Below are positions 51,044 to 61,255 of a stretch of DNA of 64,000 nt, one piece after another; within the stretch, counting starts at the first letter, position 1; every line of letters begins with the position of its first letter. A program made the translations under genes and the position numbers. The DNA is taken from positions 18,596 to 82,595 of the forward strand of contig CAYHNH010000002.1 in NCBI GenBank assembly GCA_964358005.1, read 5' to 3'. The notes below the pieces were generated by a model. It saw only the letters and a list, made by a program, of their open reading frames with translations, was not told the DNA's origin and searched no databases. This DNA is from an uncultured Candidatus Saccharibacteria bacterium. GTDB lineage: Bacteria > Patescibacteriota > Minisyncoccia > Phycocordibacterales > PALSA-1337.

Positions 51044-51673
51044 ATGACACCCTCACGAAAGCAATTATCAATAGGTCTGGCGGTGCTTGCTGTGCTCATC
51101 GTCCTTTGGTCCTTATTTGGTCCAGAGAAGAAAACCGATGTCCTCAATCTCGATTCGAGAGGTACAACCATAGTGGCCTTCGGCGACAGCCTGGTACAAG
51201 GCGTCGGCTCCACAAGCGGCAACGACTTTGTTTCTCTGCTTTCTGGCGCCATAGGACGACCTATAGTGAACCTCGGCAAGAGCGGCGATACCACAGCATT
51301 GGCGTTGGCGAGGATCGACACCATATTCGAACATGACCCGCGCATAGTCATCGTCCTCTTAGGCGGCAATGACTTCCTGCGGAGAATCCCCATGGATACG
51401 ACCTTTGAGAATCTCTCCATCATAGTGAAAGCTATCCAAGCCCGCGGTGCCGCTGTGCTCGTTCTAGGTGTGAGAGGCGGCCTTCTCTATGACAGCTACA
51501 GAGCGCGCTTCGCCAGCTTCGCAAAGGAACACAGGACCGCCTTCGTTCCGAATGTTCTCGATGGCCTCGTCGGAGATGTCAGGTTGATGTCGGATTCCAT
51601 ACACCCTAATAACGTGGGACATGAAATGATAGCTAATAAGGTGTTGCCCGTACTCAAAGGGATGCTTGATTGA
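51044..51673 (+). CDS. SGNH/GDSL hydrolase family protein
   Basis: Signal/TM N-terminus, block I GDSL (VAFGDSLVQG), and block III/V (LLGGNDFL; DSIHPN). Confidence 0.75.
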   Translation: MTPSRKQLSIGLAVLAVLIVLWSLFGPEKKTDVLNLDSRGTTIVAFGDSLVQGVGSTSGNDFVSLLSGAIGRPIVNLGKSGDTTALALARIDTIFEHDPRIVIVLLGGNDFLRRIPMDTTFENLSIIVKAIQARGAAVLVLGVRGGLLYDSYRARFASFAKEHRTAFVPNVLDGLVGDVRLMSDSIHPNNVGHEMIANKVLPVLKGMLD

Positions 51674-51724
51674 CAACTCTCTTTTTTTAAGGTTAAGCTG
51701 ACAGCAGACCTCAATGCCAGCTAT

Positions 51725-52330
51725 TTGAAAACCCTTCTTTTTCTTCCCATGCTTTTCTCTATCACAGCCCCCTCTGGAGGCGGTAAAGAGTTCCTAAAAA
51801 AGGCCCTCTTAAAACGTTTCCCTCAGCTCAGTGAATTATGTTGGACCACCACGCGCTCGCTCCGCCACGGAGAGATCCAGGGCGTCACGCGTGAAAGCGT
51901 CACGCCTGACGAATTTGCCGCTATCAAGGACGAGCTCGAGCTCGTCCAGGAATTGCCCGGCGGCTCATATGGGATACGGAGAAAATTCCTTGAGCTTGGC
52001 TCCGGGAACTTCCTGACCGAATTCCATATCGAGAATCTGATGCGGTTCAGTGCTACTGGACCGCACCCGATAGCGATCGCCCTCGTCCCTCGAGACGTCA
52101 GCTTCCTCTCGGAGCGCCTCGAAAGACGGAAAACGGAATCTCCAGCCGAGATTGCCGCCCGCCTCAAAGCAGCTCCGATGGAGATCGAACTGATCTGCCA
52201 AAACCGTAGCCTTTTTTCTCTTATTGTGGAATTCACAAAAGAGGACGAGGATACTGTAGTAGGCAGAGTCTGCGAATTCGTCGGACAGATACTCGAACGA
52301 CAACCAACGGCAGCAACATCTTCAATATGA
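51725..52330 (+). CDS. guanylate kinase family protein with atypical P-loop (APSGGGKEF)
   Basis: Recognisable in a hand alignment to E. coli Gmk (written out from memory, not searched): P-loop region SITAPSGGGKEFLKKALLK and NMP-binding TTTRSLRHGEIQGV. The Ser/Thr after the P-loop Lys is replaced by Glu. Confidence 0.55.
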   Translation: MKTLLFLPMLFSITAPSGGGKEFLKKALLKRFPQLSELCWTTTRSLRHGEIQGVTRESVTPDEFAAIKDELELVQELPGGSYGIRRKFLELGSGNFLTEFHIENLMRFSATGPHPIAIALVPRDVSFLSERLERRKTESPAEIAARLKAAPMEIELICQNRSLFSLIVEFTKEDEDTVVGRVCEFVGQILERQPTAATSSI

Positions 52331-53475
52331 ACATTGCTTCACAAGTGGGTCCGATAACATTCGACACCCCTCTCCTCGTAGCCTCCGGCTACATCACCGA
52401 AACACCAGGATTCTTCCTTCGGGCTAGCCGCTTCGGCTGCTCTGGGATTATCACCCGTTCGCTCAAGGAATCAGTTCCGCCGGACGGCTCCGGGTTTCGG
52501 GCCCCGCGCTACAGCGTCTTCGACGGCCGTTCTATGCTCAATTGCGAATGGGGCAACGAACACCCTTGGACGAGCTGGCGGGATGTCTGGGCCGATCAGG
52601 TCAAGGCTACGGGCAAACGCCTGATCATATCGCTATCCGGCCGGGACATCGAGGGCTGTTCTCATCTCATCAGCGCCTTCGACAACAAGGCAGACGGATT
52701 CGAGGTGAACATCTCCTGCTCGCACTCAGGGGCGCTGCACGGCAACCTCAACCTGGACTTTGCCCACCTCCGGAAGCTCTTCTCCTCGATCCGGCCGCTC
52801 ACCAAGCTGCCGATCTGGCTCAAGCTCTCATATTCGCCCTTCGTGGTGGAAATGGCAGCCGAAGGCGAGAGGGTCGGAGCCGACGCGATCGTCTGCACGA
52901 ACAGCATCGGTCCGGGCATGCTCATCGATATCGAGACTGGTAGCCCCAGGGTCGGCATCAAAGGCGGAGCTGGCGGCGTCACTGGACCAGCCATCTTCCC
53001 TATCGCGCTGCGCTGTGTCTATGAGATCAAAAAAGCCGTATCCATACCAGTTGTGGGCGTCGGTGGCATCTCGAGCGCGGGCGACGTGATCCAGATGATG
53101 ATGGCAGGAGCGTCGGCTGTCCAGCTCTACACACTGCCGGCACTGCGTGGTCCTAAGGCGTTTGGGGAGATAAGGGAGGAGCTGATGGCATTCCTGGCTG
53201 CTCATCCGCAGTTCCCCAGCCTGTCCAGTATCGTCGGACTTAGCCTGGACAAGGCCACCGAGCACCGCTTTGCAGCGCCAGCCCCGATCGTGGATGGCGA
53301 CAAATGCACGGGCTGCGGCATCTGCATTCCAAGCTGTTCCTTCGGGGCGATCAGGCTTTCGGCGATGAACGGCCCAGCCAAGGCCGTGATCAAGGACACC
53401 TGCATCGGCTGCAACGCCTGTGTCGGAGTCTGCCCGCCCGAATTAGGGGCGATCTCAACCACCTACCAATCATGA
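52327..53475 (+). CDS. dihydroorotate dehydrogenase-family flavoprotein with C-terminal 2x[4Fe-4S] ferredoxin domain (PreA/DPD-like)
   Basis: DHOD-like TIM barrel with a Cys active-site motif (NISCSHSG) and two CxxCxxCxxxCP clusters at the C-terminus. It overlaps both neighbours by 4 nt. Confidence 0.75.
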   Translation: MNIASQVGPITFDTPLLVASGYITETPGFFLRASRFGCSGIITRSLKESVPPDGSGFRAPRYSVFDGRSMLNCEWGNEHPWTSWRDVWADQVKATGKRLIISLSGRDIEGCSHLISAFDNKADGFEVNISCSHSGALHGNLNLDFAHLRKLFSSIRPLTKLPIWLKLSYSPFVVEMAAEGERVGADAIVCTNSIGPGMLIDIETGSPRVGIKGGAGGVTGPAIFPIALRCVYEIKKAVSIPVVGVGGISSAGDVIQMMMAGASAVQLYTLPALRGPKAFGEIREELMAFLAAHPQFPSLSSIVGLSLDKATEHRFAAPAPIVDGDKCTGCGICIPSCSFGAIRLSAMNGPAKAVIKDTCIGCNACVGVCPPELGAISTTYQS

Positions 53476-53723
53476 GTAAACCGATATTCCCGATAGAGAT
53501 CTATTGCAAAGGCTGCAATACGCTCCTCTACAAATACGACAAGGAGGGCGCCGGCTCTCTGGTGAAGTGCTTCGTCAATCGGATCACCCAGAACAACACG
53601 CAAGGCGACTGCAGGTGCCCGAAGTGCGGCACACGGTTCGCGAGGCCGAGTCAGATTATGAATCGGCCGATCCACAAGATCATCGGCGGAAAGGTGTATA
53701 CCAAGGGTCACTGCCCGAAGTGA
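53472..53723 (+). CDS. small zinc-ribbon protein
   Basis: 83 aa with two CxxC pairs (CKGCNT...CRCPKCGT). It overlaps the previous stop (ATGA). Start chosen at the internal Met of the track ORF 53304..53723. Confidence 0.45.
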   Translation: MSKPIFPIEIYCKGCNTLLYKYDKEGAGSLVKCFVNRITQNNTQGDCRCPKCGTRFARPSQIMNRPIHKIIGGKVYTKGHCPK

Positions 53724-53740
53724 TGCCTGCCCCGCGTTAC

Positions 53741-53776
53741 CGAGGCGACTCCGTGTCGCCTCTTTTTATTTATTCA
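53741..53776 (+). terminator. rho-independent terminator
   Basis: GAGGCGAC tccgt GTCGCCTC TTTTTATTTATT. Confidence 0.6.
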
Positions 53777-54377
53777 GATACCTTCTGTCACGAAAATATC
53801 CAGGTTCGTATTTTGCATAATCAAAAATCGAGTTGGCCTCCCTGTTCAGAGTCTCGATATAGGCATAGAAGCCTTCGTCGGTGAATGTCTTGAGCTTGAG
53901 CTCTTCGCATAGTGCGAGTAGTTCGGCTTCGGCTTTGTGCGCATCAACTGCAGTGGCCAGTATCTCGGCCTCAAAATAGTAGCTGTGCCCAGGCACCTCT
54001 ACTAGGGCGAACTCCACATTCTTGTAATCATAAACAAGGCTGTTCCTGACGCAGAGAACGCCCTTCGTGTATCCAAGCTCACCAAAAGCCCTGACAAGAT
54101 CGTCGAAACTGCCCTTTTCTGTATGAATTGATATCTCCTCCCTTTTTTCAGAACCACCCCAGGCACCCAGCTTTATGATTATCTCCGGTATACCGTTAGT
54201 TTCCCTGACCCGTATGTCCTTCTTCCTATCCCTGACGCCAGAGGAAAAATCTATCAGGACGCGCTCCTTCTTCTGTTTGAAAATAGAGTTCTTTGAGAGA
54301 AAAGAGTTCAACACATCGAATTCATCCTTCGAGAGAAGTCCTCGCACCTCTGCTTCGATATTCTTTACATTTGTCAT
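53766..54377 (-). CDS. CYTH-like domain protein (putative triphosphate tunnel metalloenzyme)
   Basis: An N-terminal ExExR/K-like motif (NIEAEVRGLL) and overall size fit a CYTH domain. Start at the internal Met. The assignment is tentative. Confidence 0.35.
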   Translation of the reverse strand: MTNVKNIEAEVRGLLSKDEFDVLNSFLSKNSIFKQKKERVLIDFSSGVRDRKKDIRVRETNGIPEIIIKLGAWGGSEKREEISIHTEKGSFDDLVRAFGELGYTKGVLCVRNSLVYDYKNVEFALVEVPGHSYYFEAEILATAVDAHKAEAELLALCEELKLKTFTDEGFYAYIETLNREANSIFDYAKYEPGYFRDRRYLNK

Positions 54378-54381
54378 TGGT

Positions 54382-55401
54382 TTAGGCCGTAGCTTTTTGG
54401 ATAAGCTGCCGCACGCACATGGTAGCATAGCATCCGGCAGGTAGGAAAAATGCCAGCCTTAGCTTGCAGCACCCTTTATTGAGATCGTCATCCCCGACTT
54501 CGAGAACATATATGGCCGTAGTTATGATAGCACAGCGAGAGTTCTCCCTTCGGATAGGCTTCATGCCAGGACCTATCTTATACCCTTCATTAGAAAAAAT
54601 ATTCTTAGCCACAAAGACATTGCCACCTGGGACAAAGAGCTCTGCGACGTTCTCGAACTTATGATGCGCACCATTATTCGACTTCTGGAGATCTTCCGAC
54701 AGTGCGTGATTCCAATGATAGCTCTCATACGCCGAAACGAAAAAATCGACCTTCTTCGGGTTTAGGCCAGCGAATATCCCCTTAGGCTCGGCACTGGGTG
54801 GAATTGTCCCGATCTTGTTATTCGATCTCACTAGCTGGGTGTATGCCTCTTCCCAGTCTTCTTCGATTATAGCTTTGCCGATTAGGTGAGTGTTAAACGG
54901 CCCCCCAGGCATGCCGAACCGCTGGGAATCGTAATAATTTATAAAGCTTATGAACTTGTTATCCCTGCAATATTCGACGACGCTCTCCGCGGCATCTTTC
55001 TCCAGATCGCGCACGATGAGGTCGAAACAATTGCCATGAAGCATCTTGGGCTGGACTGGCTCGCGGCCGTAGCCAAGGATCCTCTCCAGAGAAATATATG
55101 ATTTCTCACCAGAGTGACTTCCATTGAAAGCATCTAAGTCAGACTGGACGAGAGCCTTACGCATCGAAATGATCTGGGAGGTTATACCATCCTCATCTTT
55201 GAGCCCTTCCGCAGACACATCTTCGTATTCAAGCTCGAAAAATATCTTGAGAAATTCCTGGGCGTCGAATGTAGTATATCCGCTCTTCTTGAGCCAAATA
55301 TAGGTGAATGGGCCTTCTCCACGAAAGCGAGGGAGGAGCGGGACCTCGGTGACTTCAAAGTCATCATTCCTAACCTTCAACATGTAATTCGTGGAAGCCA
55401 T
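54382..55401 (-). CDS. truD: tRNA pseudouridine synthase TruD/Pus7 family
   Basis: Conserved N-terminal block (DFEVTEVP...GEGPFTYIWLKKSGYTTFDAQEFL...DVSAEGLKDEDG) and the NYYDSQRFG motif (canonical form NYFGxQRFG). The first ~158 aa of the track ORF are non-protein-like, so the start is set at the internal Met. Confidence 0.7.
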   Translation of the reverse strand: MASTNYMLKVRNDDFEVTEVPLLPRFRGEGPFTYIWLKKSGYTTFDAQEFLKIFFELEYEDVSAEGLKDEDGITSQIISMRKALVQSDLDAFNGSHSGEKSYISLERILGYGREPVQPKMLHGNCFDLIVRDLEKDAAESVVEYCRDNKFISFINYYDSQRFGMPGGPFNTHLIGKAIIEEDWEEAYTQLVRSNNKIGTIPPSAEPKGIFAGLNPKKVDFFVSAYESYHWNHALSEDLQKSNNGAHHKFENVAELFVPGGNVFVAKNIFSNEGYKIGPGMKPIRRENSRCAIITTAIYVLEVGDDDLNKGCCKLRLAFFLPAGCYATMCVRQLIQKATA

Positions 55402-56178: not shown

Positions 56179-57792
56179 CTACGCTTTCCTAAATGGCTCC
56201 AATTCCACCACGAATGTCGAGCCCTTGCCTTCTCCGGCTGATTCCGCCCTTATGGTGCCATGATGTGCCTCCACCATCTGCTTGGCCACGAACAGTCCGA
56301 GTCCGGTGCCCTTGATGTTGACCTTGTTGGCATTGTTGGCTCGCGAGAATTTCTGGAAGAGATGCGGCAATATCTCCGGATCTATGCCTATGCCAGTGTC
56401 CTTGATCTCAAATATGATGACCTGCCTCTTGTGATCGAATGACAGAGTAACTGCAACCGAGCCGGAAGGCGTGTATTTCACCGAATTATCTACGAGGTTG
56501 GCTATGACCTGCTTCAGCTTGTCGCGGTCAGCGGTTATGCGGTAATCGGTACCGTTGTTCTCGGCAGCGAAACTGAAGTTCAAGCCCTTACCCTCAATGT
56601 TCGGCTTGAGCTCGGCTATGACGTCCTCGACCATGAGTTTGAGGTCAATGGTCTCGAATGTATATTTCATCGTTCCGAGCTCTATCCTGCTGATATTAAG
56701 GTAGTCGTTAACTATACTGACCAGTGTGTTCGTAGAATCAAATATGCGCTCTATGCCCTCCTTGGCCGCCGGCGGCAGTTCTCCCATGTCGCCTTCGAGC
56801 AATAGAGAGCCGTAACCCTTCATGGCCGTAAGCGGCGCGCGCAGCTGATGCGTAGCGAACGACACGAACTCTGACTTCTGCCTATCCAGCTCCGTGAGGC
56901 GCGTATTGGCCTTCTCCAGATCATCTGCCAGCTTTTGGATGCGTTCGCGTTGTTCAATCTCGTTAAACACATTCTTTACCAACCAAATTCCAAATATAAC
57001 AGTCAAAACAAGGATAACTCCACCAATAATTGCATCCTCAAAACTCTGTGCAAGTACAACCCTAAATAGTAAGGTTATCCAGATCGTTGCTGTCAGCAAT
57101 TGAGCTGTTATAACCCTAATATCAAACAGCTTATATTTTAAAATCGCATAGGCAATAATGAGTGGATAAAATGCAAATAATATCACTGGAAACGGTGGAA
57201 TCAGTACATTGAAGGTCAGAAGGAAAACACTACTACCACCTATAAATCCAGCTACCGATGAAAAAAGGATGTACTTAAGTCTGTGACCTTCCTCTTTTGA
57301 AACCTTCTTTATCTTTAATGATAGTAATATCAACGCAAAAATTACCGTCGCAAAAAAGTAAACAGTAAATGCAACATACAGCGGCCCTGCATTTGGTACA
57401 TAGGGCAAAGTTCCCTTAGAGAATACATCGGTAACAAATAATACAGAAGGCGTAACGGATGCAAAATATATAGCTATTATTCCAAAAACAAATAAAAAGG
57501 GCTTATATTTTTTTAATTCTTCAATAACAGTAATTATAAAAAACAAATAAAAAAATGGAATAAATGATGCACCGATATGTAAAATAATATCGCTTAAAAC
57601 TGCGGCTTCTTTACTTGAGGCTATTAGCATACTGTAATAACCAAAACTCCATATGCCTGTTGATATAGAGAGCAAAAGCCAAATTATGCTTTTAAGTTGC
57701 TTCGAGTTACTTAAAAAAACCAACAATCCAGAACCGAGAGCAACTAAACCACCTATAAAAAGAGACAAGCTATAGTATGTAAAGAAAAACAT
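56179..57792 (-). CDS. sensor histidine kinase with N-terminal 7TM receptor domain (orphan)
   Basis: 7 TM helices, a coiled-coil linker, a HisKA H-box (SFATHQLRAPL), and HATPase_c N/G1/G2 boxes. Confidence 0.85.
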   Translation of the reverse strand: MFFFTYYSLSLFIGGLVALGSGLLVFLSNSKQLKSIIWLLLSISTGIWSFGYYSMLIASSKEAAVLSDIILHIGASFIPFFYLFFIITVIEELKKYKPFLFVFGIIAIYFASVTPSVLFVTDVFSKGTLPYVPNAGPLYVAFTVYFFATVIFALILLSLKIKKVSKEEGHRLKYILFSSVAGFIGGSSVFLLTFNVLIPPFPVILFAFYPLIIAYAILKYKLFDIRVITAQLLTATIWITLLFRVVLAQSFEDAIIGGVILVLTVIFGIWLVKNVFNEIEQRERIQKLADDLEKANTRLTELDRQKSEFVSFATHQLRAPLTAMKGYGSLLLEGDMGELPPAAKEGIERIFDSTNTLVSIVNDYLNISRIELGTMKYTFETIDLKLMVEDVIAELKPNIEGKGLNFSFAAENNGTDYRITADRDKLKQVIANLVDNSVKYTPSGSVAVTLSFDHKRQVIIFEIKDTGIGIDPEILPHLFQKFSRANNANKVNIKGTGLGLFVAKQMVEAHHGTIRAESAGEGKGSTFVVELEPFRKA

Positions 57793-57815
57793 GTTCTGTG
57801 GATTGATTATAACAT

Positions 57816-59471
57816 CTATTTCATCATTCCTTGATATAGGTATTTGTTGCCCAATTCAGATGCATTTGGTGTAGATATTAGAAATTCAGCAAGATCCTCT
57901 ATTGAGGAAAAAACTATGTTTGTCCCATGATGAGGCTCAATATGTACATCACCCATATACAAGGATTTGGATTTTAATGCATTTTCAAATACGTCCATTT
58001 TACCGGCTAATGCATATATTGAGGATTGAATGGTAGAACAAGCTACGTGTGGATTATCATATCCATGTACATAAAAACCCTCCGGAATAAGATTATGTTG
58101 AATATATCCATGCCAATGGACAAGAGCAACCCCATTTTTTGCCATACGGTTAGAAAATTCTTGTTGGATTCCAGTAGACTTCTCTATACGATTAAGAACT
58201 GACGAAATGATTGCATTACCAACGGCATGAGCGAGAATTACTCTGGTGTCAAACGAGGGACGATAGTCTCTCCTAATACGACAGCCTATTGGAGTCCTTA
58301 AATACATTTTCCCATTCACAAGACCCATGAGAAAAATGTCGCGATGGGGATCTATTTTTGTTTTATCCGAACCAGACCTTTGTGTTAAAACCCAGACATC
58401 AGGTACTTTTAAAAAAAACCTGCCCAGCGGCAATTCCATGATTAAGTAAAGCTCGTCGTTCTTAATGAAATAATCCTGACCAAGTTTAATAGAATGTTTA
58501 GAAATATCCTCGTCAGAAAGAGGTACTAATCCTACAGGGACCGATGGAAGCTGCCTGGCGAGAAATCCATAACTCATACCGCTCCTGTGATCTAAATGAA
58601 GCTTTCCAATCCACTTATAAAAACCAGACCTAAATGGCAAATCTTCAACTTTTTTACCAGGCGGGTACAAATTAGTTTTATTAAACTTTTCTCCCCCGGT
58701 AACGAAATCTTTTAGAAGAGTTTTATATGGGTCTGAATCTACATCAAAAGATTCTGGCTCTACTATGAAATCCTTAAGGTAAGGTGGTCTAATTGGAGCA
58801 GCTACCTTTGGTATAAGTGCCTTTAAAATATTTCCCTTAAAATTTTTATGTAAGGGATACACCGGGTGTGAAGCATTGAAATTATAAATTATAAACTTAT
58901 CCGCAGAGACAAGTATCGCAATTTGTGTCATATGATAAGAAAAAATATTCATCGCGGCATCAAAGTGCGTAGAGAAGTTGCTTGTTTCATCTATGCCTGC
59001 AGGACATTTTAATACAGTAATTATTGTGTTCTGCGTAAAACTAGATGTGTAATCCATAGGCAACTGAGAGGATCTATTCTCACCCAAAGCAACAACTGTT
59101 ATTCCTTTTCTTATTCGCATTCTTTTAAAAAGGTTTAAAAAAGCTCCAGCGTGAATATTATGATAGGAATGGTCTTTGTTGATCATCTCTAAAACCGTAT
59201 ATAAAAAATTATTTGCGCAAATCTTTAGGAATCTTTTTAAAATTGTTGCAATAGAAATTTTCTCGAGAGATTTTTCATATGGAACTATCCTAACTCCTAG
59301 CTCTAGAAGTGCAGCCTCGAGCAAATCTTTAAAAATCAAGGTCTCCCTACTACAACTTTCAGAACTATATGGAAAAAAAGTAAAAACTAGTTTTTTGGCC
59401 ATCTGCTCAGGCTGAAGATCAGTAGAGGTTTCGATGCCCAGAATTCGCTCTATCGCTAATTTACTTAACAT
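57816..59471 (-). CDS. hypothetical 551-aa cytoplasmic protein, AT-rich, co-operonic with histidine kinase
   Basis: No TM helix or signal peptide, and no recognised motif. It lies 23 nt upstream of the histidine-kinase gene on the same strand. Confidence 0.6.
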   Translation of the reverse strand: MLSKLAIERILGIETSTDLQPEQMAKKLVFTFFPYSSESCSRETLIFKDLLEAALLELGVRIVPYEKSLEKISIATILKRFLKICANNFLYTVLEMINKDHSYHNIHAGAFLNLFKRMRIRKGITVVALGENRSSQLPMDYTSSFTQNTIITVLKCPAGIDETSNFSTHFDAAMNIFSYHMTQIAILVSADKFIIYNFNASHPVYPLHKNFKGNILKALIPKVAAPIRPPYLKDFIVEPESFDVDSDPYKTLLKDFVTGGEKFNKTNLYPPGKKVEDLPFRSGFYKWIGKLHLDHRSGMSYGFLARQLPSVPVGLVPLSDEDISKHSIKLGQDYFIKNDELYLIMELPLGRFFLKVPDVWVLTQRSGSDKTKIDPHRDIFLMGLVNGKMYLRTPIGCRIRRDYRPSFDTRVILAHAVGNAIISSVLNRIEKSTGIQQEFSNRMAKNGVALVHWHGYIQHNLIPEGFYVHGYDNPHVACSTIQSSIYALAGKMDVFENALKSKSLYMGDVHIEPHHGTNIVFSSIEDLAEFLISTPNASELGNKYLYQGMMK

Positions 59472-59545
59472 TTAATTGGGTTAAACCAGGGTAGTGGATA
59501 TACGAGTATTATTGTATCATAGGAATTTGACCACTACTTATAGTT

Positions 59546-61255
59546 ATGACAATCACAATATATTCAATATTAAACTGGATAACAGGGCTGATTCTTATTT
59601 CGGTAGCCTTTGCCATATATTTTCCAAGTGATAAATCACTTTCCGCAAGACTTTGTTCATTACTTTCGCTGGTAACAGGAGTATGGAGCTTGTTTATAGC
59701 TTTATCAGTTTCCGCAAATGACCTTTTTGTTGGGCTTATATTGCTAAAATCATGTCACTTTCTTGGAACACTAATTGCATCAGTTTTTATATTATTTTCA
59801 CTATCATATCCTAGTACAAAAAAAATAAAACCCGGAATAATCGCTGCATTTGCCATTGCTGAATTTATATTTGTATATCTAATCTTTTTCACTGACACAA
59901 TAATTCTAAATTCTCTGCTTTTACCGAATTTAGAATACTTTGCCTGGGAGTATGGCTCATTGCAGATATTTTTTGATATTTACTTTATTTTTTGTTGGAT
60001 AATTGGAATATTTGTACTTTATAACAAATTAAAGAGCTGTAGGGACGTAGAAATTACCAAAAATCTACAACTCATGCTAATTGCATTCATAATAAGTATT
60101 ACACCACCAACCTTTCTTACAATACTTTTACCGCAACTCGGAATTTTTGATTATTATTGGCTAAGCCCACTCTCCTGCTTATTTTGGATTATTGTTATCT
60201 CATACTCAATAACACGACATCATCTATTTAGGATAAAGGTTGTTGCCGCACAATTGATTACCTTTGTTCTCTGGATATTTATCCTCATCAGGATATTACT
60301 GGCAACCAATCCAAAGGAAATCATTATTGAGGGCACACTTCTTGGAATTACAATTATATCTGGAGTGTTTCTCGTAAAAGCAGTATTAAAGGAAACAAGA
60401 CAAAGAGAGAAAATTGAGCAATTGGCAAACAAATTACAGGATGCCTACAGGATAACTAGTGACCTCAACCACACCCTCGAAGCCAAGGTTGCGGCGCAGA
60501 CAGTGGAGATACGCAAGGCTTACGAGGCCGAGAAGCACGCTCGCCTGGAGCTGGAGAAGCTCAACGATGCCAAGGACCAGTTCATAATGATAACCCAGCA
60601 TCATTTGAGGACTCCGGTCACAAGCATGCTCTGGGCCATAGAATCGTCGCTCCAGGGAGCCTACGGGAAGATGGGCGCGGCGCTTCGGTCCGTTCTCGAA
60701 GATGCCCAGACATCCGGAAAGCGTCTGATGAAGATAGTCGATGATTTCTTGAACATAACTGCCATAAAGATCGGCACTAACATCTTGAATATATCCAAAG
60801 TCAGTCTGAAACCGGCCATGGATGACATTCTGCTGGAATTGAAGGGCAGCATAGACAAAATGAGGCTCATGGTTTCGTTCCCTGCTGATGGTAATAGCTG
60901 GCCAGAACTGCCGGTAGATTACGACAAGATGCGCGAGAGTCTCTTCATAATCATGGAGAATGCCGTGAGATACAACGAGGAAGGCGGCTCTGTGAAGATA
61001 GCAACGTCCAGGCAGGAGGATCGATTCGTGATATCGGTGGAGAATACCGGTCTCGGCATATCCGGCGAGGAGTCGACAAGGATAGGCAACGCTCTGTTCT
61101 ACAGAGGTGACTATGCCAGGAAGGCCTACCCCATTGGCATGGGAATCGGGCTGTCTGTCGTAAAGGCGATCATCAGGGCCCATCATGGGACTTTCAGCAT
61201 CACCTCCGAGGGCAAAGGTAAGGGTGCCAAAGCGTCGGTCTCCCTTCCCATATGA
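59546..61255 (+). CDS. sensor histidine kinase with N-terminal 7TM receptor domain (orphan; paralog of 56179..57792)
   Basis: Same architecture as the 56179..57792 kinase: 7 TM helices, an H-box (ITQHHLRTPV), and HATPase_c. The two linker regions align (KYKLFDIRVITAQLL vs RHHLFRIKVVAAQLI). Confidence 0.85.
   Translation: MTITIYSILNWITGLILISVAFAIYFPSDKSLSARLCSLLSLVTGVWSLFIALSVSANDLFVGLILLKSCHFLGTLIASVFILFSLSYPSTKKIKPGIIAAFAIAEFIFVYLIFFTDTIILNSLLLPNLEYFAWEYGSLQIFFDIYFIFCWIIGIFVLYNKLKSCRDVEITKNLQLMLIAFIISITPPTFLTILLPQLGIFDYYWLSPLSCLFWIIVISYSITRHHLFRIKVVAAQLITFVLWIFILIRILLATNPKEIIIEGTLLGITIISGVFLVKAVLKETRQREKIEQLANKLQDAYRITSDLNHTLEAKVAAQTVEIRKAYEAEKHARLELEKLNDAKDQFIMITQHHLRTPVTSMLWAIESSLQGAYGKMGAALRSVLEDAQTSGKRLMKIVDDFLNITAIKIGTNILNISKVSLKPAMDDILLELKGSIDKMRLMVSFPADGNSWPELPVDYDKMRESLFIIMENAVRYNEEGGSVKIATSRQEDRFVISVENTGLGISGEESTRIGNALFYRGDYARKAYPIGMGIGLSVVKAIIRAHHGTFSITSEGKGKGAKASVSLPI

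What the first reader, a model, noticed from the sequence alone, without database searches (positions are those of the whole stretch)
51725..53723. Translationally coupled trio: guanylate-kinase-like protein with GKE P-loop, DHOD-like FeS flavoprotein, and a zinc-ribbon protein
The three genes overlap by ATGA at both junctions.
- The first protein aligns well to E. coli Gmk by hand (alignment written out from memory, not searched): SITAPSGGGKEFLKKALLK against IVSAPSGAGKSSLIQALLK, and TTTRSLRHGEIQGV against the NMP site. Glu replaces the Mg-coordinating Ser/Thr after the P-loop Lys. That suggests altered or lost kinase activity.
- The second is a class-1 DHOD/dihydropyrimidine-dehydrogenase-like TIM barrel with an active-site Cys and two [4Fe-4S] clusters.
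- The third is a small zinc-ribbon protein.

This combination of a purine-type kinase fold with a pyrimidine-type redox enzyme is not a standard operon.
Basis: partly seen in the sequence, partly recalled or inferred. Interest (0 to 1): 0.5.

Follow-up and report, generated by a model that had tools for sequence, protein, structure and literature searches.

The report
Conserved Patescibacteria pyrimidine-nucleotide processing gene module
The three overlapping genes are real. They belong to a five-gene block kept together across the tiny, nucleotide-scavenging Patescibacteria: a guanylate-kinase look-alike that has lost its guanine-binding residues, an iron-sulfur uracil-ring reductase, a small four-cysteine protein, a triphosphatase-like protein and a pseudouridine synthase. 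The block most likely processes a uracil-type nucleotide by an undescribed route.

Summary
Three + strand genes (51749-52330, 52327-53475, 53472-53723) overlap by ATGA at both junctions.

- **g1** is a guanylate-kinase-fold protein.
- **g2** is an FMN TIM barrel with a C-terminal 2x[4Fe-4S] domain. It is closer to dihydropyrimidine dehydrogenase (DPD/PreA) than to DHOD.
- **g3** is an 83-aa Cys-rich ribbon protein with no known family.

The order g1-g2-g3 recurs in about 38 Patescibacteria genomes. g1 and g2 are fused in two lineages, apparently independently. A CYTH-like gene (35/42 loci) and a TruD-family pseudouridine synthase (27/42) nearly always lie next to the trio.

The Glu after the P-loop Lys is a minor clade quirk: 4/34 family members have it, 30/34 have Gly, and S. 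aureus Gmk also has Gly. The family-wide signal is different. All four guanine-contacting residues are replaced, while the phosphate clamps and LID arginines are kept. g2 keeps the pyrimidine-site residues and catalytic Cys of DPD.

A sister g2 subfamily, mainly in Actinomycetota, pairs with a non-homologous PfkB kinase and a STAND-TPR-NUDIX protein.

Best reading: a non-GMP nucleotide kinase works with a low-potential-donor uracil-ring reductase on a uracil-type nucleotide, possibly a modified one. The substrate is unknown. I found no description of this module.

The parts
51749..52330 (+). g1: guanylate-kinase-fold P-loop protein, 193 aa (mechanical ORF start is TTG 51725). Predicted nucleoside-monophosphate kinase with a non-guanine acceptor.
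   Evidence: Pfam PF00625 4e-8 and TIGR03263 63 bits against cut-off 160. PDB Gmk hits to 4e-11. Start set by the family alignment. Residue table.
51767..51793 (+). P-loop APSGGGKEF of g1. Lys conserved. +1 is Glu (clade-specific). +2 is Phe (F/Y/H across the family, never S/T).
52327..53475 (+). g2: DPD/PreA-type FMN TIM barrel plus C-terminal 2x[4Fe-4S] domain, 382 aa. Predicted reductase of the C5=C6 bond of a uracil-type ring.
   Evidence: Pfam DHO_dh 3e-35 plus Fer4 models. Family profile best PDB hit is pig DPD 1gt8, 120 bits, both domains. Foldseek top hit is DPD 1gte, 8e-26. More than 3000 homologues.
52717..52719 (+). Codon of Cys131 in the motif NISCSHSG. Aligns with the catalytic Cys671 of pig DPD.
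   Evidence: Alignment. Invariant in the family. Motif statistics.
53284..53442 (+). Two ferredoxin-type CxxCxxCxxxC motifs of g2 (C327, C330, C333, C337 and C359, C362, C365, C369).
53472..53723 (+). g3: 83-aa ribbon protein with CxxC...C...CxxC and a conserved C-terminal RPxHKIIxGKV tail. Member of an undescribed family.
   Evidence: No Pfam or NCBIfam family. Conserved directly downstream of g2. 476 clusters found by exhaustive HMMER. Absent from the one locus whose g2 lacks the Fe-S domain.
53742..53772 (+). Intrinsic-terminator-like hairpin (8 bp, 6 GC) followed by TTTTTATTTA, in the 42-nt convergent gap after g3.
53766..54377 (-). CYTH/triphosphate-tunnel-like protein, 203 aa, convergent with the trio. 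Present in 35/42 loci.
   Evidence: Family profile against PDB 2een (P. horikoshii PH1819, deposited as a hypothetical protein) 3.7e-8. TIGR00318 cyaB 4e-7, below cut-off. Synteny.
54382..55401 (-). TruD-family pseudouridine synthase, 339 aa, 4 nt upstream of the CYTH-like gene on the same strand. Present in 27/42 loci.
   Evidence: TIGR00094 122 bits, cut-off 172. Pfam TruD 1e-41 for a relative. GLKDE and NYYDxQRFG motifs conserved in 26 sequences. Synteny.

Best explanation
The trio is the core of a Patescibacteria-wide module that processes a uracil-type nucleotide. It is not a gmk plus pyrD pair.

**Proposed roles**
- g1 is a guanylate-kinase-fold phosphotransferase that still clamps a nucleoside monophosphate phosphate. 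Its base pocket has been rebuilt, so it should phosphorylate (or at least bind) an NMP other than GMP.
- g2 is a PreA/DPD-type flavoenzyme. Electrons enter through two [4Fe-4S] clusters from a low-potential donor such as ferredoxin and reach FMN. FMN and the conserved Cys then reduce the C5=C6 bond of a uracil-type ring, or run the reverse oxidation.
- g3 is an accessory Cys-rich subunit tied to the Fe-S (electron-entry) side.
- g1 and g2 act on the same molecule in successive steps or as a complex.
- The flanking CYTH-like triphosphatase and TruD-family pseudouridine synthase probably belong to the same pathway. This suggests the substrate is a modified pyrimidine nucleotide: pseudouridine, which is a 5-substituted uracil, or dihydrouridine. 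Such nucleotides would come from scavenged or turned-over RNA.

**Shown:** folds, conserved residues, synteny, fusions.
**Inferred:** small-molecule substrate, direction of the redox reaction, role of g3, identity of the nucleotide.
For: **g1 and g2 are functionally linked**
- The same order g1-g2-g3 with operon spacing occurs in about 38 genomes labelled Paceibacterota, Uhrbacteria, Kerfeldbacteria, Kaiserbacteria, Taylorbacteria, Saccharibacteria or Nanosyncoccaceae. It also occurs on a divergent 347-kb contig.
- There are two g1-g2 fusions with different linkers. One of them is seen on two contigs.

**g1 is not a Gmk**
- P-loop Lys, R38, R41, Y78 and LID R131/R135/R146 are kept in 33-34 of 34 sequences.
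- S34 is W (34/34), E69 is L/F/C, S80 is L/V/I and D100 is H/N/Q. Y50 is R (34/34).
- One genome has a second, more canonical Gmk paralogue 5 kb away.

**g2 is DPD-like**
- N609, E611, N668, S670, C671, K709, N736 and T737 of pig DPD align with N72, E74, N128, S130, C131, K166, N192 and S193.
- The best fold match is DPD.
- The motifs NCEWGN and SCSH set the clade apart from DHOD-1B.

**A small-molecule substrate is likely**
- The sister subfamily is always preceded by a PfkB sugar/nucleoside-type kinase and a NUDIX-containing protein. The 'kinase + reductase + pyrophosphatase' theme therefore recurs with a non-homologous kinase.
- NUDIX genes also neighbour the module in three Patescibacteria loci (L002, L032, L036).

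**A low-potential donor has a precedent**
- PydAc, a DPD lacking the FAD/NADPH domains, reduces uracil with reduced ferredoxin (PMC7332683).
- No PreT- or PyrK-like partner is among the conserved neighbours.

**g3 is tied to the Fe-S domain**
- The one locus whose g2 lacks the Fe-S domain also lacks g3.

**A free-nucleotide pathway with a TruD enzyme has a precedent**
- The pseudouridimycin cluster pairs the TruD-like PumJ with the adenylate-kinase homologue PumH (PMC10127198).
- In locus L005 all five genes are co-directional.

**Not de novo pyrimidine synthesis**
- The 64-kb window has no other pyr gene.
- Most CPR classes other than Microgenomatia are reported to lack the UMP pathway (PMC9166423).
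Against: - No substrate is identified and nothing was assayed.
- The P-loop lacks Ser/Thr at both +1 and +2, which is unusual for P-loop kinases. g1 might bind rather than phosphorylate.
- In DPD the pocket closes around a free base. Whether g2 can take a ribose-phosphate is unknown.
- CYTH and TruD are convergent with the trio in nearly all loci. They form their own two-gene unit and could be functionally separate.
- TruD enzymes normally act on tRNA.
- The g3 family also occurs without g2, in another bacterium and in apparent eukaryotes. Its role may be more general.
- The Fe-S/g3 co-loss rests on one genome.
- The second-Gmk observation rests on one genome. Whole genomes could not be examined.
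- The AlphaFold model of the fusion gave no information on the g1-g2 interface.
Confidence: 0.45

Rival explanations
1. RNA-level modification machine. g2 is a ferredoxin-driven, Dus-like dihydrouridine synthase acting on tRNA or rRNA. g3 is a zinc-ribbon RNA-binding subunit. g1 is an RNA-end or nucleotide-binding accessory. TruD modifies the same RNA and CYTH acts on RNA 5'-triphosphate ends.
For: - A TruD-family gene with intact catalytic motifs is adjacent in 27/42 loci.
- Dus enzymes belong to the same FMN TIM-barrel superfamily and use a catalytic Cys (established knowledge). Weak Pfam Dus hits fall on the FMN-phosphate region.
- Small Cys4 ribbons often bind nucleic acid.
- Some CYTH/TTM members are RNA triphosphatases (established knowledge).
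Against: - g2 keeps the full set of free-pyrimidine-binding residues of DPD.
- g1 keeps the NMP phosphate clamps.
- The sister subfamily pairs with a PfkB kinase and a NUDIX domain, which are small-molecule enzymes.
- No recognisable RNA-binding domain is present in g1 or g2.
Confidence: 0.17
2. Free-base reductive pyrimidine metabolism or electron sink. g2 (with g3) is simply a ferredoxin-dependent uracil/thymine reductase like PydAc. It re-oxidises ferredoxin in a fermentative cell. g1 is a neighbouring salvage kinase with no mechanistic link.
For: - DPD pocket residues are conserved.
- PydAc is a precedent.
- By the literature, Patescibacteria generally lack a respiratory chain (PMC10633639), and a ferredoxin-based fermentative metabolism is a reasonable assumption.
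Against: - Two g1-g2 fusions and universal g1-g2 adjacency argue for a direct link.
- No dihydropyrimidinase or ureidopropionase gene is among the conserved neighbours.
- The N-terminal Fdx1 domain of PydAc is absent.
- The invariant Trp/Gly/Asn in the NCEWGN loop and the shortened active-site loop differ from DPD.
Confidence: 0.15
3. Ordinary housekeeping genes. g1 is the cell's divergent guanylate kinase and g2 is a divergent class-1 dihydroorotate dehydrogenase. They sit side by side by ancestry.
For: - The best named profile hits are guanylate kinase and PyrD subfamily 1.
- No other gmk or DHOD is present in the 64-kb window.
- CPR proteins are often very divergent.
Against: - All four guanine contacts are lost family-wide.
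- Scores lie far below the equivalog cut-offs: 63 against 160 and 167 against 270.
- g2 has DPD-type rather than DHOD-type motifs.
- No PyrK partner or other pyr gene is nearby.
- Most CPR classes are reported to lack the UMP pathway.
- One genome has a second, more canonical Gmk paralogue.
Confidence: 0.07
4. Producer of a modified nucleotide, such as a 5,6-dihydropyrimidine nucleotide, used as an effector or antimetabolite. The logic would resemble viperin plus CMPK2. The module would then be related to the putative defence operon of Actinomycetota.
For: The sister subfamily sits in operons with STAND-TPR-NUDIX proteins (one with a TIR domain), next to integrases and transposases. The pairing of an NMP kinase with a nucleotide-modifying enzyme resembles viperin/CMPK2 (established knowledge).
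Against: - In Patescibacteria the module lies among housekeeping genes.
- It is very widespread and highly conserved, 55-72% identity.
- It has no sensor protein.
- It matches no PADLOC model and was not found on viral contigs.
Confidence: 0.08

Closest known systems
Guanylate kinase (Gmk; PF00625, TIGR03263)
   Same: Same fold. P-loop GxxGxGK, TTRxxR phosphate clamp, Tyr78, and LID arginines R131/R135/R146 are all kept.
   Different: All guanine-contacting residues are replaced: S34W, E69L, S80L/I/V, D100H. Tyr50 is Arg. There is no Ser/Thr at +1 or +2 after the P-loop Lys. The score is well under half the equivalog cut-off (63 against 160). Always encoded next to, or fused with, a DPD-like reductase.
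Dihydropyrimidine dehydrogenase C-terminal half / E. coli PreA-type subunit (FMN barrel + 2x[4Fe-4S])
   Same: Identical two-domain architecture. Pyrimidine-site and catalytic residues are conserved. DPD is the best sequence-profile and fold match.
   Different: No PreT-type FAD/NAD(P)H subunit is in the neighbourhood. K574 is Arg. The signature NCEWGN loop and a shorter SCSHSG active-site loop differ. The score is below the NF006183 PreA cut-off (137 against 335).
PydAc, the ferredoxin-dependent dihydropyrimidine dehydrogenase of Clostridium chromiireducens (PMC7332683)
   Same: A DPD homologue without the FAD/NADPH domains that takes electrons from ferredoxin. This is the proposed electron-entry logic for g2.
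   Different: PydAc keeps the N-terminal Fdx1 domain and lies in a Pyd catabolic cluster with PydB and PydC. g2 has neither. It is instead coupled to a kinase-fold protein and a Cys-rich small protein.
Class 1B dihydroorotate dehydrogenase PyrD (with PyrK)
   Same: Homologous FMN TIM barrel with a catalytic Cys. It is the second-best PDB match.
   Different: PyrD-1B has the NAIGLQN and SCPN motifs, has no fused Fe-S domain, and works with PyrK. None of these apply here.
PumJ (TruD-like pseudouridine synthase) plus PumH (adenylate-kinase homologue) of the pseudouridimycin gene cluster (PMC10127198)
   Same: A TruD-family enzyme and an NMP-kinase-fold protein are encoded together in a pathway that handles free pseudouridine or its phosphate.
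   Different: That is a Streptomyces antibiotic pathway. It has no DPD-like reductase or CYTH protein, and the biochemical roles of PumJ and PumH are themselves unproven. No sequence comparison with PumJ or PumH could be made here.
CYTH / triphosphate tunnel metalloenzymes (CyaB-like; PDB 2een, 1yem, 2dc4)
   Same: The neighbouring 203-aa protein matches these by profile. It has the N-terminal ExExK-like strand (IEAEVR) and acidic strands.
   Different: It is below the Pfam and NCBIfam thresholds. The last residue of the signature is Arg in most members. The substrate is unknown.

Membership tests
Guanylate kinase (Gmk) | P-loop GxxGxGK with the catalytic Lys | tested here: met
   APSGGGK in the window. 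Lys in 34/34 family members.
Guanylate kinase (Gmk) | Ser/Thr at +1 and/or +2 after the P-loop Lys (GK[SG][ST]) | tested here: not met
   The window has E and F. The family has G30/E4 at +1 and F19/Y13/H2 at +2. Five canonical Gmks all have S/T at +2.
Guanylate kinase (Gmk) | GMP phosphate clamps (yeast R38, R41, Y50, Y78) | tested here: inconclusive
   R38, R41 and Y78 are kept in 34/34. Y50 is replaced by Arg in 34/34. Arg could still bind phosphate.
Guanylate kinase (Gmk) | Guanine-recognition residues (yeast S34, E69, S80, D100; roles recalled from the 1GKY literature) | tested here: not met
   W, L, I and H in the window. W 34/34, L/F/C, L/V/I and H/N/Q in the family.
Guanylate kinase (Gmk) | LID-domain arginines | tested here: met
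   R131 34/34, R135 33/34, R146 33/34.
Guanylate kinase (Gmk) | Score at or above the curated equivalog cut-off | tested here: not met
   TIGR03263 63.1 bits against 160.45. The Pfam domain cut-off is passed (33.5 against 25.2).
Guanylate kinase (Gmk) | GMP + ATP -> GDP + ADP activity | not testable with these tools
   Needs an enzyme assay.
Dihydroorotate dehydrogenase class 1B (PyrD) | Equivalog or subfamily score, the NAIGLxN and SCPN motifs, and a PyrK partner | tested here: not met
   TIGR01037 167 against 270. The motifs are NCEWGN and SCSH. No PyrK-like conserved neighbour.
DPD / PreA-type pyrimidine reductase | FMN TIM barrel followed by a 2x[4Fe-4S] ferredoxin domain | tested here: met
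DPD / PreA-type pyrimidine reductase | Pyrimidine-site and catalytic residues (pig N609, E611, N668, S670, C671, K709, N736, T737; K574) | tested here: met
   Eight of nine are conserved or conservatively replaced (T737 is S). K574 is Arg. Residue roles are from the DPD structure literature (recalled).
DPD / PreA-type pyrimidine reductase | Partner with FAD/NAD(P)H domains (PreT or the N-terminal half of DPD) | tested here: not met
   None among the conserved neighbours in 42 loci. NF006183 scores 137 against 335.
DPD / PreA-type pyrimidine reductase | Reduction of uracil or thymine | not testable with these tools
   Needs an anaerobic enzyme assay.
PydAc (ferredoxin-dependent DPD) | N-terminal Fdx1 domain plus a Pyd cluster context (PydB, PydC) | tested here: not met
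   g2 starts directly with the barrel. No PydB or PydC is among the conserved neighbours.
Rubredoxin (as a model for g3) | CxxCG...CPxCG knuckles with a rubredoxin profile or fold match | tested here: inconclusive
   CKGC...CPKCG are present. There is no Pfam hit, the AF2 model is poor (pLDDT 65), and no significant fold match was found (best E 0.88). Metal identity is not testable here.
CYTH / TTM | Profile match and an N-terminal ExExK strand | tested here: inconclusive
   PDB 2een 3.7e-8 with the family profile. TIGR00318 30 bits against 57.95. No Pfam hit. The motif is IEAEVR.
TruD pseudouridine synthase | Catalytic Asp in GxKD and the QRFG motif; family score | tested here: met
   GLKDE and NYYDxQRFG are conserved in 26 sequences. 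A relative passes the Pfam TruD cut-off (143 bits against 27). For the window protein, TIGR00094 scores 122.6, below the equivalog cut-off of 172.2.

The most novel reading that the evidence does not exclude
Patescibacteria cannot make pyrimidines. They may carry a previously unknown branch of pyrimidine nucleotide metabolism dedicated to modified uracil nucleotides from RNA, such as pseudouridine or dihydrouridine monophosphate. Its parts would be a re-specified Gmk-fold kinase, a ferredoxin-driven DPD-like ring reductase or dehydrogenase with a new Cys-rich partner, a triphosphatase, and a TruD-family enzyme acting on free nucleotides. The same kinase-plus-reductase chemistry would have been recruited in Actinomycetota into a STAND/TIR/NUDIX conflict system.
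Probability: 0.15. Interest if true: 0.85.

Novelty: new variant of a known kind. Interest (0 to 1): 0.62.

Why it matters
- **Scale and annotation.** Patescibacteria are a very large part of bacterial diversity, and according to the literature they generally cannot synthesise nucleotides de novo. A module this widespread (more than 3000 homologues of g2), this conserved (55-72% identity across classes) and this consistently organised is likely to matter for their physiology. Yet its genes are annotated only as '4Fe-4S binding protein', 'dihydroorotate dehydrogenase' or 'hypothetical protein'.
- **Metabolic reconstructions.** Automated reconstructions that read g1 as gmk and g2 as pyrD would wrongly credit these organisms with steps of GTP and UMP synthesis.
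- **New enzymology.** The module offers a testable case of a guanylate-kinase fold re-specified for another nucleotide, and of a DPD-type reductase that works without its NAD(P)H module.
- **Possible link to immunity.** The sister operon in Actinomycetota is a candidate for an undescribed nucleotide-based conflict system.

Tried and rejected
1. **Source contig.** Exact look-up of g2 found no record. The source was identified only through g3, as Hainich groundwater contigs.
2. **AlphaFold of g3.** With a 7-sequence alignment the model was poor (pLDDT 65). Foldseek against the PDB found nothing significant (best E 0.88). The rubredoxin-versus-zinc-ribbon question stays open.
3. **AlphaFold of the natural g1-g2 fusion P0031.** The g2 part was confident, but the Gmk-like part was not modelled (pLDDT below 50). 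This gave no information on the interface.
4. **PADLOC scan.** No match for any of the five window proteins. The actinobacterial operon gave only generic TPR/TIR hits and one weak BrxP hit on its reductase (5e-5, over the Fe-S region).
5. **Viral contig scan with the g2 profile.** No relatives.
6. **Rfam and tRNA scans of the window.** Nothing found. The promoter scan was no better than shuffles.
7. **Literature searches for the gene combination.** No description of the module was found.
8. **Tn-seq tables of Southlakia epibionticum.** That organism lacks the module, so they give no essentiality data.
9. **Second gmk or DHOD in the window.** None found. Whole genomes could not be searched, so whether this organism has another gmk remains open.
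10. **Idea considered and dropped: g2 as the PyrD of a de novo pathway.** Rejected on motifs, scores and context.
11. **Idea considered and left untested: a thymidylate-related role** (g1 as dTMP kinase, g2 acting on a thymine ring). It was set aside because no whole genome was available to check for tmk, thyA or thyX.


Full report
**1. What is in the sequence**

Reading window 51500-54000 and the ORF list confirms three co-directional genes.
- g1 ends with TGA at 52328-52330.
- g2 starts with ATG at 52327 and ends with TGA at 53473-53475.
- g3 starts with ATG at 53472 and ends at 53723.

Both junctions are ATGA overlaps. Alignment with relatives puts the g1 start at ATG 51749 (MLFSITAPSGGGKEF...), not at the upstream TTG 51725. 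A strong hairpin with a T-run lies at 53742-53772, directly after g3. Four-base overlaps are common in bacteria. The overlaps alone are therefore weak evidence of anything unusual.

**2. Fold assignments**

- **g1** matches Pfam Guanylate_kin (4e-8) and NCBIfam guanylate kinase TIGR03263 at 63 bits. The equivalog cut-off is 160. It aligns over about 145 residues with solved guanylate kinases, best E 4e-11.
- **g2** matches DHO_dh (3e-35) and several 4Fe-4S dicluster models. It stays below every curated cut-off: PyrD subfamily 167 against 270, PreA 137 against 335.
- **g3** matches no family.

**3. The gene order is conserved, and the unit is bigger than three genes**

g2 has more than 3000 homologues. 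The best 120 are 53-72% identical to g2 (apart from the identical entry). Wherever the source names an organism, it is a Patescibacteria lineage or an unclassified bacterium.

A scan of one genome per GTDB species returned about 40 Patescibacteria loci. Their records are labelled Paceibacterota, Uhrbacteria, Kerfeldbacteria, Kaiserbacteria, Taylorbacteria, Saccharibacteria and Nanosyncoccaceae. In every locus with room, tblastn and phmmer find g1 immediately upstream of g2 and g3 immediately downstream. Spacing is -37..+10 nt and -8..+22 nt. g3 is often not called by gene finders, but it is present as an intact ORF.

Clustering all neighbouring ORFs across 42 loci revealed two further conserved neighbours on the opposite strand, convergent with the trio.
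- A ~205-aa protein is present in 35/42 loci (window 53766-54377). It has no Pfam hit. Its family profile matches the Pyrococcus horikoshii protein 2een (PH1819, deposited as a hypothetical protein) at 3.7e-8, and it matches TIGR00318 cyaB at 4e-7. This is a CYTH/triphosphate-tunnel-like protein.
- A TruD-family protein is present in 27/42 loci (window 54382-55401). It has the GLKDE and NYYDxQRFG motifs.

In the window TruD and CYTH are 4 nt apart. In the closest relative found in the genome-collection scan, L005, all five genes are co-directional. Flanking genes beyond these five vary freely. A divergent 347-kb contig again shows the full set of five.

**4. Fusions**

g1 and g2 are fused in two lineages.
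- In an Uhrbacteria MAG they form one 573-aa protein, seen on two contigs.
- In a Nanosyncoccus genome they form a 581-aa protein with a ~60-residue linker.

The different linkers and lineages suggest independent events. The Nanosyncoccus protein ends before the Fe-S domain, and that locus has no g3. This is a single case of co-loss, and it ties g3 to the Fe-S domain.

**5. g1 is a re-specified Gmk fold, not a damaged P-loop**

I aligned 34 family members with yeast, E. coli, S. aureus and two other Gmks. Residue roles are recalled from the yeast Guk1-GMP structure literature.

| Feature (yeast numbering) | Result in the family |
|---|---|
| P-loop Lys | 34/34 |
| Phosphate clamps R38, R41, Y78 | 34/34 |
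| LID arginines R131, R135, R146 | 33-34/34 |
| Guanine contact S34 | Trp 34/34 |
| Guanine contact E69 | Leu/Phe/Cys |
| Guanine contact S80 | Leu/Val/Ile |
| Guanine contact D100 | His 30, Asn 3, Gln 1 |
| Y50 | Arg 34/34 |

The other 30 have Gly, as does the genuine S. aureus Gmk (GPSGVGKGT). The truly unusual P-loop feature is F/Y/H at the next position, where all five canonical Gmks have Ser/Thr.

I read this as a phosphotransferase with a different acceptor base. Loss of Ser/Thr at both positions leaves some doubt about catalysis.

One Paceibacterota genome has a second, more canonical Gmk paralogue (GKST, DYHF, YYGT) 5 kb from its module. The 64-kb window has none.

**6. g2 is DPD/PreA-like**

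With the family profile, the best solved relative is pig dihydropyrimidine dehydrogenase (120 bits). The match covers the FMN barrel (residues 533-868) and the C-terminal dicluster domain (919-998).

In that alignment the DPD residues map onto g2 as follows. Residue roles are recalled from the DPD structure papers.

| Pig DPD | g2 |
|---|---|
| N609 | N72 |
| E611 | E74 |
| N668 | N128 |
| S670 | S130 |
| C671 | C131 |
| K709 | K166 |
| N736 | N192 |
| T737 | S193 |
| K574 | Arg44 |

The AlphaFold model of the g2 part (pLDDT above 90) matches DPD first (8e-26), then DHOD-B. The motifs NCEWGN and SCSH[SA]G are found in most of 118 Patescibacteria sequences and 50 sister-clade sequences. They are absent from 48 canonical DHOD-1B-like sequences, which have NAIGLQN and SCPN.

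No PreT- or PyrK-like partner is conserved nearby. Electrons must therefore enter the clusters from another donor. The characterised precedent is PydAc, a DPD lacking the FAD/NADPH domains that uses reduced ferredoxin (PMC7332683).

**7. The sister clade**

The nearest relatives outside Patescibacteria share 39-40% identity with g2. They number about 55 proteins and include Micromonospora and other Actinomycetota. In all six distinct places examined, the gene is the last of a three-gene operon: a large AAA_16 STAND-TPR protein with a C-terminal NUDIX domain (one also has an N-terminal TIR domain), then a PfkB-family kinase, then the reductase. The STAND/TPR-NUDIX protein is split into two ORFs in L065, and the middle gene has no PfkB hit on record in L058/L059 and L065. 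Several of these operons lie next to integrases or transposases.

The 'kinase + reductase + pyrophosphatase' theme therefore recurs with a non-homologous kinase that acts on small molecules. For me this tips the balance towards a small-molecule (nucleoside or nucleotide) substrate over an RNA substrate. PADLOC has no model for this operon.

**8. g3**

g3 has five conserved Cys (CxxC, KC, CxxC) and a conserved tail RPxHKIIxGKVxxxGH. The word-indexed search found only 7 relatives. Exhaustive HMMER found 476 clusters. These include proteins with long N-terminal presequence-like extensions, one from the stramenopile Platysulcus tardus. They also include a stand-alone bacterial copy that is not next to any g2.

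The family is therefore broader than the module. Its structure could not be modelled well. I propose an accessory role at the electron-entry side of g2. The basis is strict adjacency and the single co-loss with the Fe-S domain. Confidence is low.

**9. Putting it together**

The most economical reading is a nucleotide-processing module. In it, a Gmk-fold kinase for a non-guanine NMP and a low-potential-donor DPD-type reductase act on the same uracil-type compound. A triphosphatase-like protein and a TruD-family enzyme are attached.

The TruD link, and the fact that DPD accepts 5-substituted uracils (thymine and 5-halouracils, as in PDB entries 1gte and 7m31), make pseudouridine nucleotides an attractive candidate. 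Pseudouridine is 5-ribosyluracil. The pseudouridimycin cluster shows that a TruD-like enzyme (PumJ) and an adenylate-kinase homologue (PumH) can be encoded together in a free C-nucleoside pathway (PMC10127198). Dihydrouridine nucleotides are an equally open option. All of this is inference. No tool here can identify the substrate.

**10. Context and rivals**

The window is ordinary Patescibacteria housekeeping DNA. It encodes S4, RpoA, GrpE-DnaK-DnaJ, several aminoacyl-tRNA synthetases, FtsW, MurG, DnaB, RecR and RmuC. It has no pyrimidine-biosynthesis gene and no second gmk or DHOD. The literature reports that CPR classes other than Microgenomatia lack the UMP pathway (PMC9166423).

The rivals are set out with their tests in the rival-explanations section:
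- an RNA-level Dus-like machine with TruD;
- a plain ferredoxin-dependent uracil reductase with an unrelated kinase;
- housekeeping Gmk plus PyrD;
- an effector-nucleotide producer.

**11. Novelty**

I found no paper describing this gene combination. Public annotations call the proteins '4Fe-4S binding protein', 'dihydroorotate dehydrogenase' or 'hypothetical'. Each protein belongs to a known superfamily, so I rate the finding a new variant of a known kind. A real chance remains that the chemistry is new.

Noticed in passing
L041 1947-7056; L042 1983-7056; L055 2363-8176; L057 1943-8155; L058 1943-8560; L065 1990-7846: In Actinomycetota (e.g. Micromonospora sp. NPDC005189) and related metagenome contigs, the sister subfamily of g2 is the last gene of a conserved operon in all six distinct places examined. 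The operon is [AAA_16 STAND + TPR + C-terminal NUDIX; one copy also has an N-terminal TIR] -> [PfkB-family kinase] -> [DPD-like Fe-S reductase]. Several copies sit next to integrases or transposases. It looks like an undescribed defence or conflict system. PADLOC 2023 has no model for it.
   Followed up: partly
P0238, P0345, P0357, P0368, P0372, P0384 (proteins); L062 8001-8342: The g3 family is much wider than the module, with 476 clusters at 50% identity. It includes proteins with long, low-complexity N-terminal extensions that resemble organellar presequences; one is from the stramenopile Platysulcus tardus. It also includes a stand-alone copy in a non-Patescibacteria-like contig with no g2 nearby. 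No Pfam family covers it.
   Followed up: partly
L033 5182-6927: A Nanosyncoccus genome encodes a g1-g2 fusion whose reductase part ends before the Fe-S domain. The locus also lacks g3, while the CYTH-like gene is still adjacent.
   Followed up: partly
L024 11362-11901: A Paceibacterota genome carries a second guanylate-kinase homologue with canonical GKST, DYHF and YYGT motifs about 5 kb from its module. This implies that g1 is a paralogue and not the housekeeping Gmk, at least in that genome.
   Followed up: partly
window 56179-57792 (-), 59546-61255 (+); L063 4455-6320: Histidine kinases with an N-terminal 7TM domain (HisKA_7TM) lie near the module in the window, in 10 of 42 loci, and directly upstream of g1 in L063. 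This could be regulatory or coincidental.
   Followed up: no
window about 57000-60500: G+C drops to about 35%, against about 52% for the rest of the window. The stretch contains a 551-aa ORF (57816-59471, minus strand) with no Pfam hit, between the two 7TM histidine kinase genes.
   Followed up: no
L002 3344-3853; L032; L036: A small NUDIX hydrolase gene neighbours the module in three Patescibacteria loci. In L002 it takes the place usually held by the CYTH-like gene. This echoes the NUDIX domain of the actinobacterial operon.
   Followed up: no
supplementary tables of PMC10633639: The genetically tractable Saccharibacterium Southlakia epibionticum appears to lack the module. Its tables list no TruD pseudouridine synthase and no 4Fe-4S DHOD-like protein. 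It has a class-2 quinone-dependent DHOD whose disruption gives a growth defect, and a 'guanylate kinase' scored as non-essential.
   Followed up: no
window 1-64000: No tRNA gene and no Rfam family at gathering threshold were found in 64 kb.
   Followed up: yes
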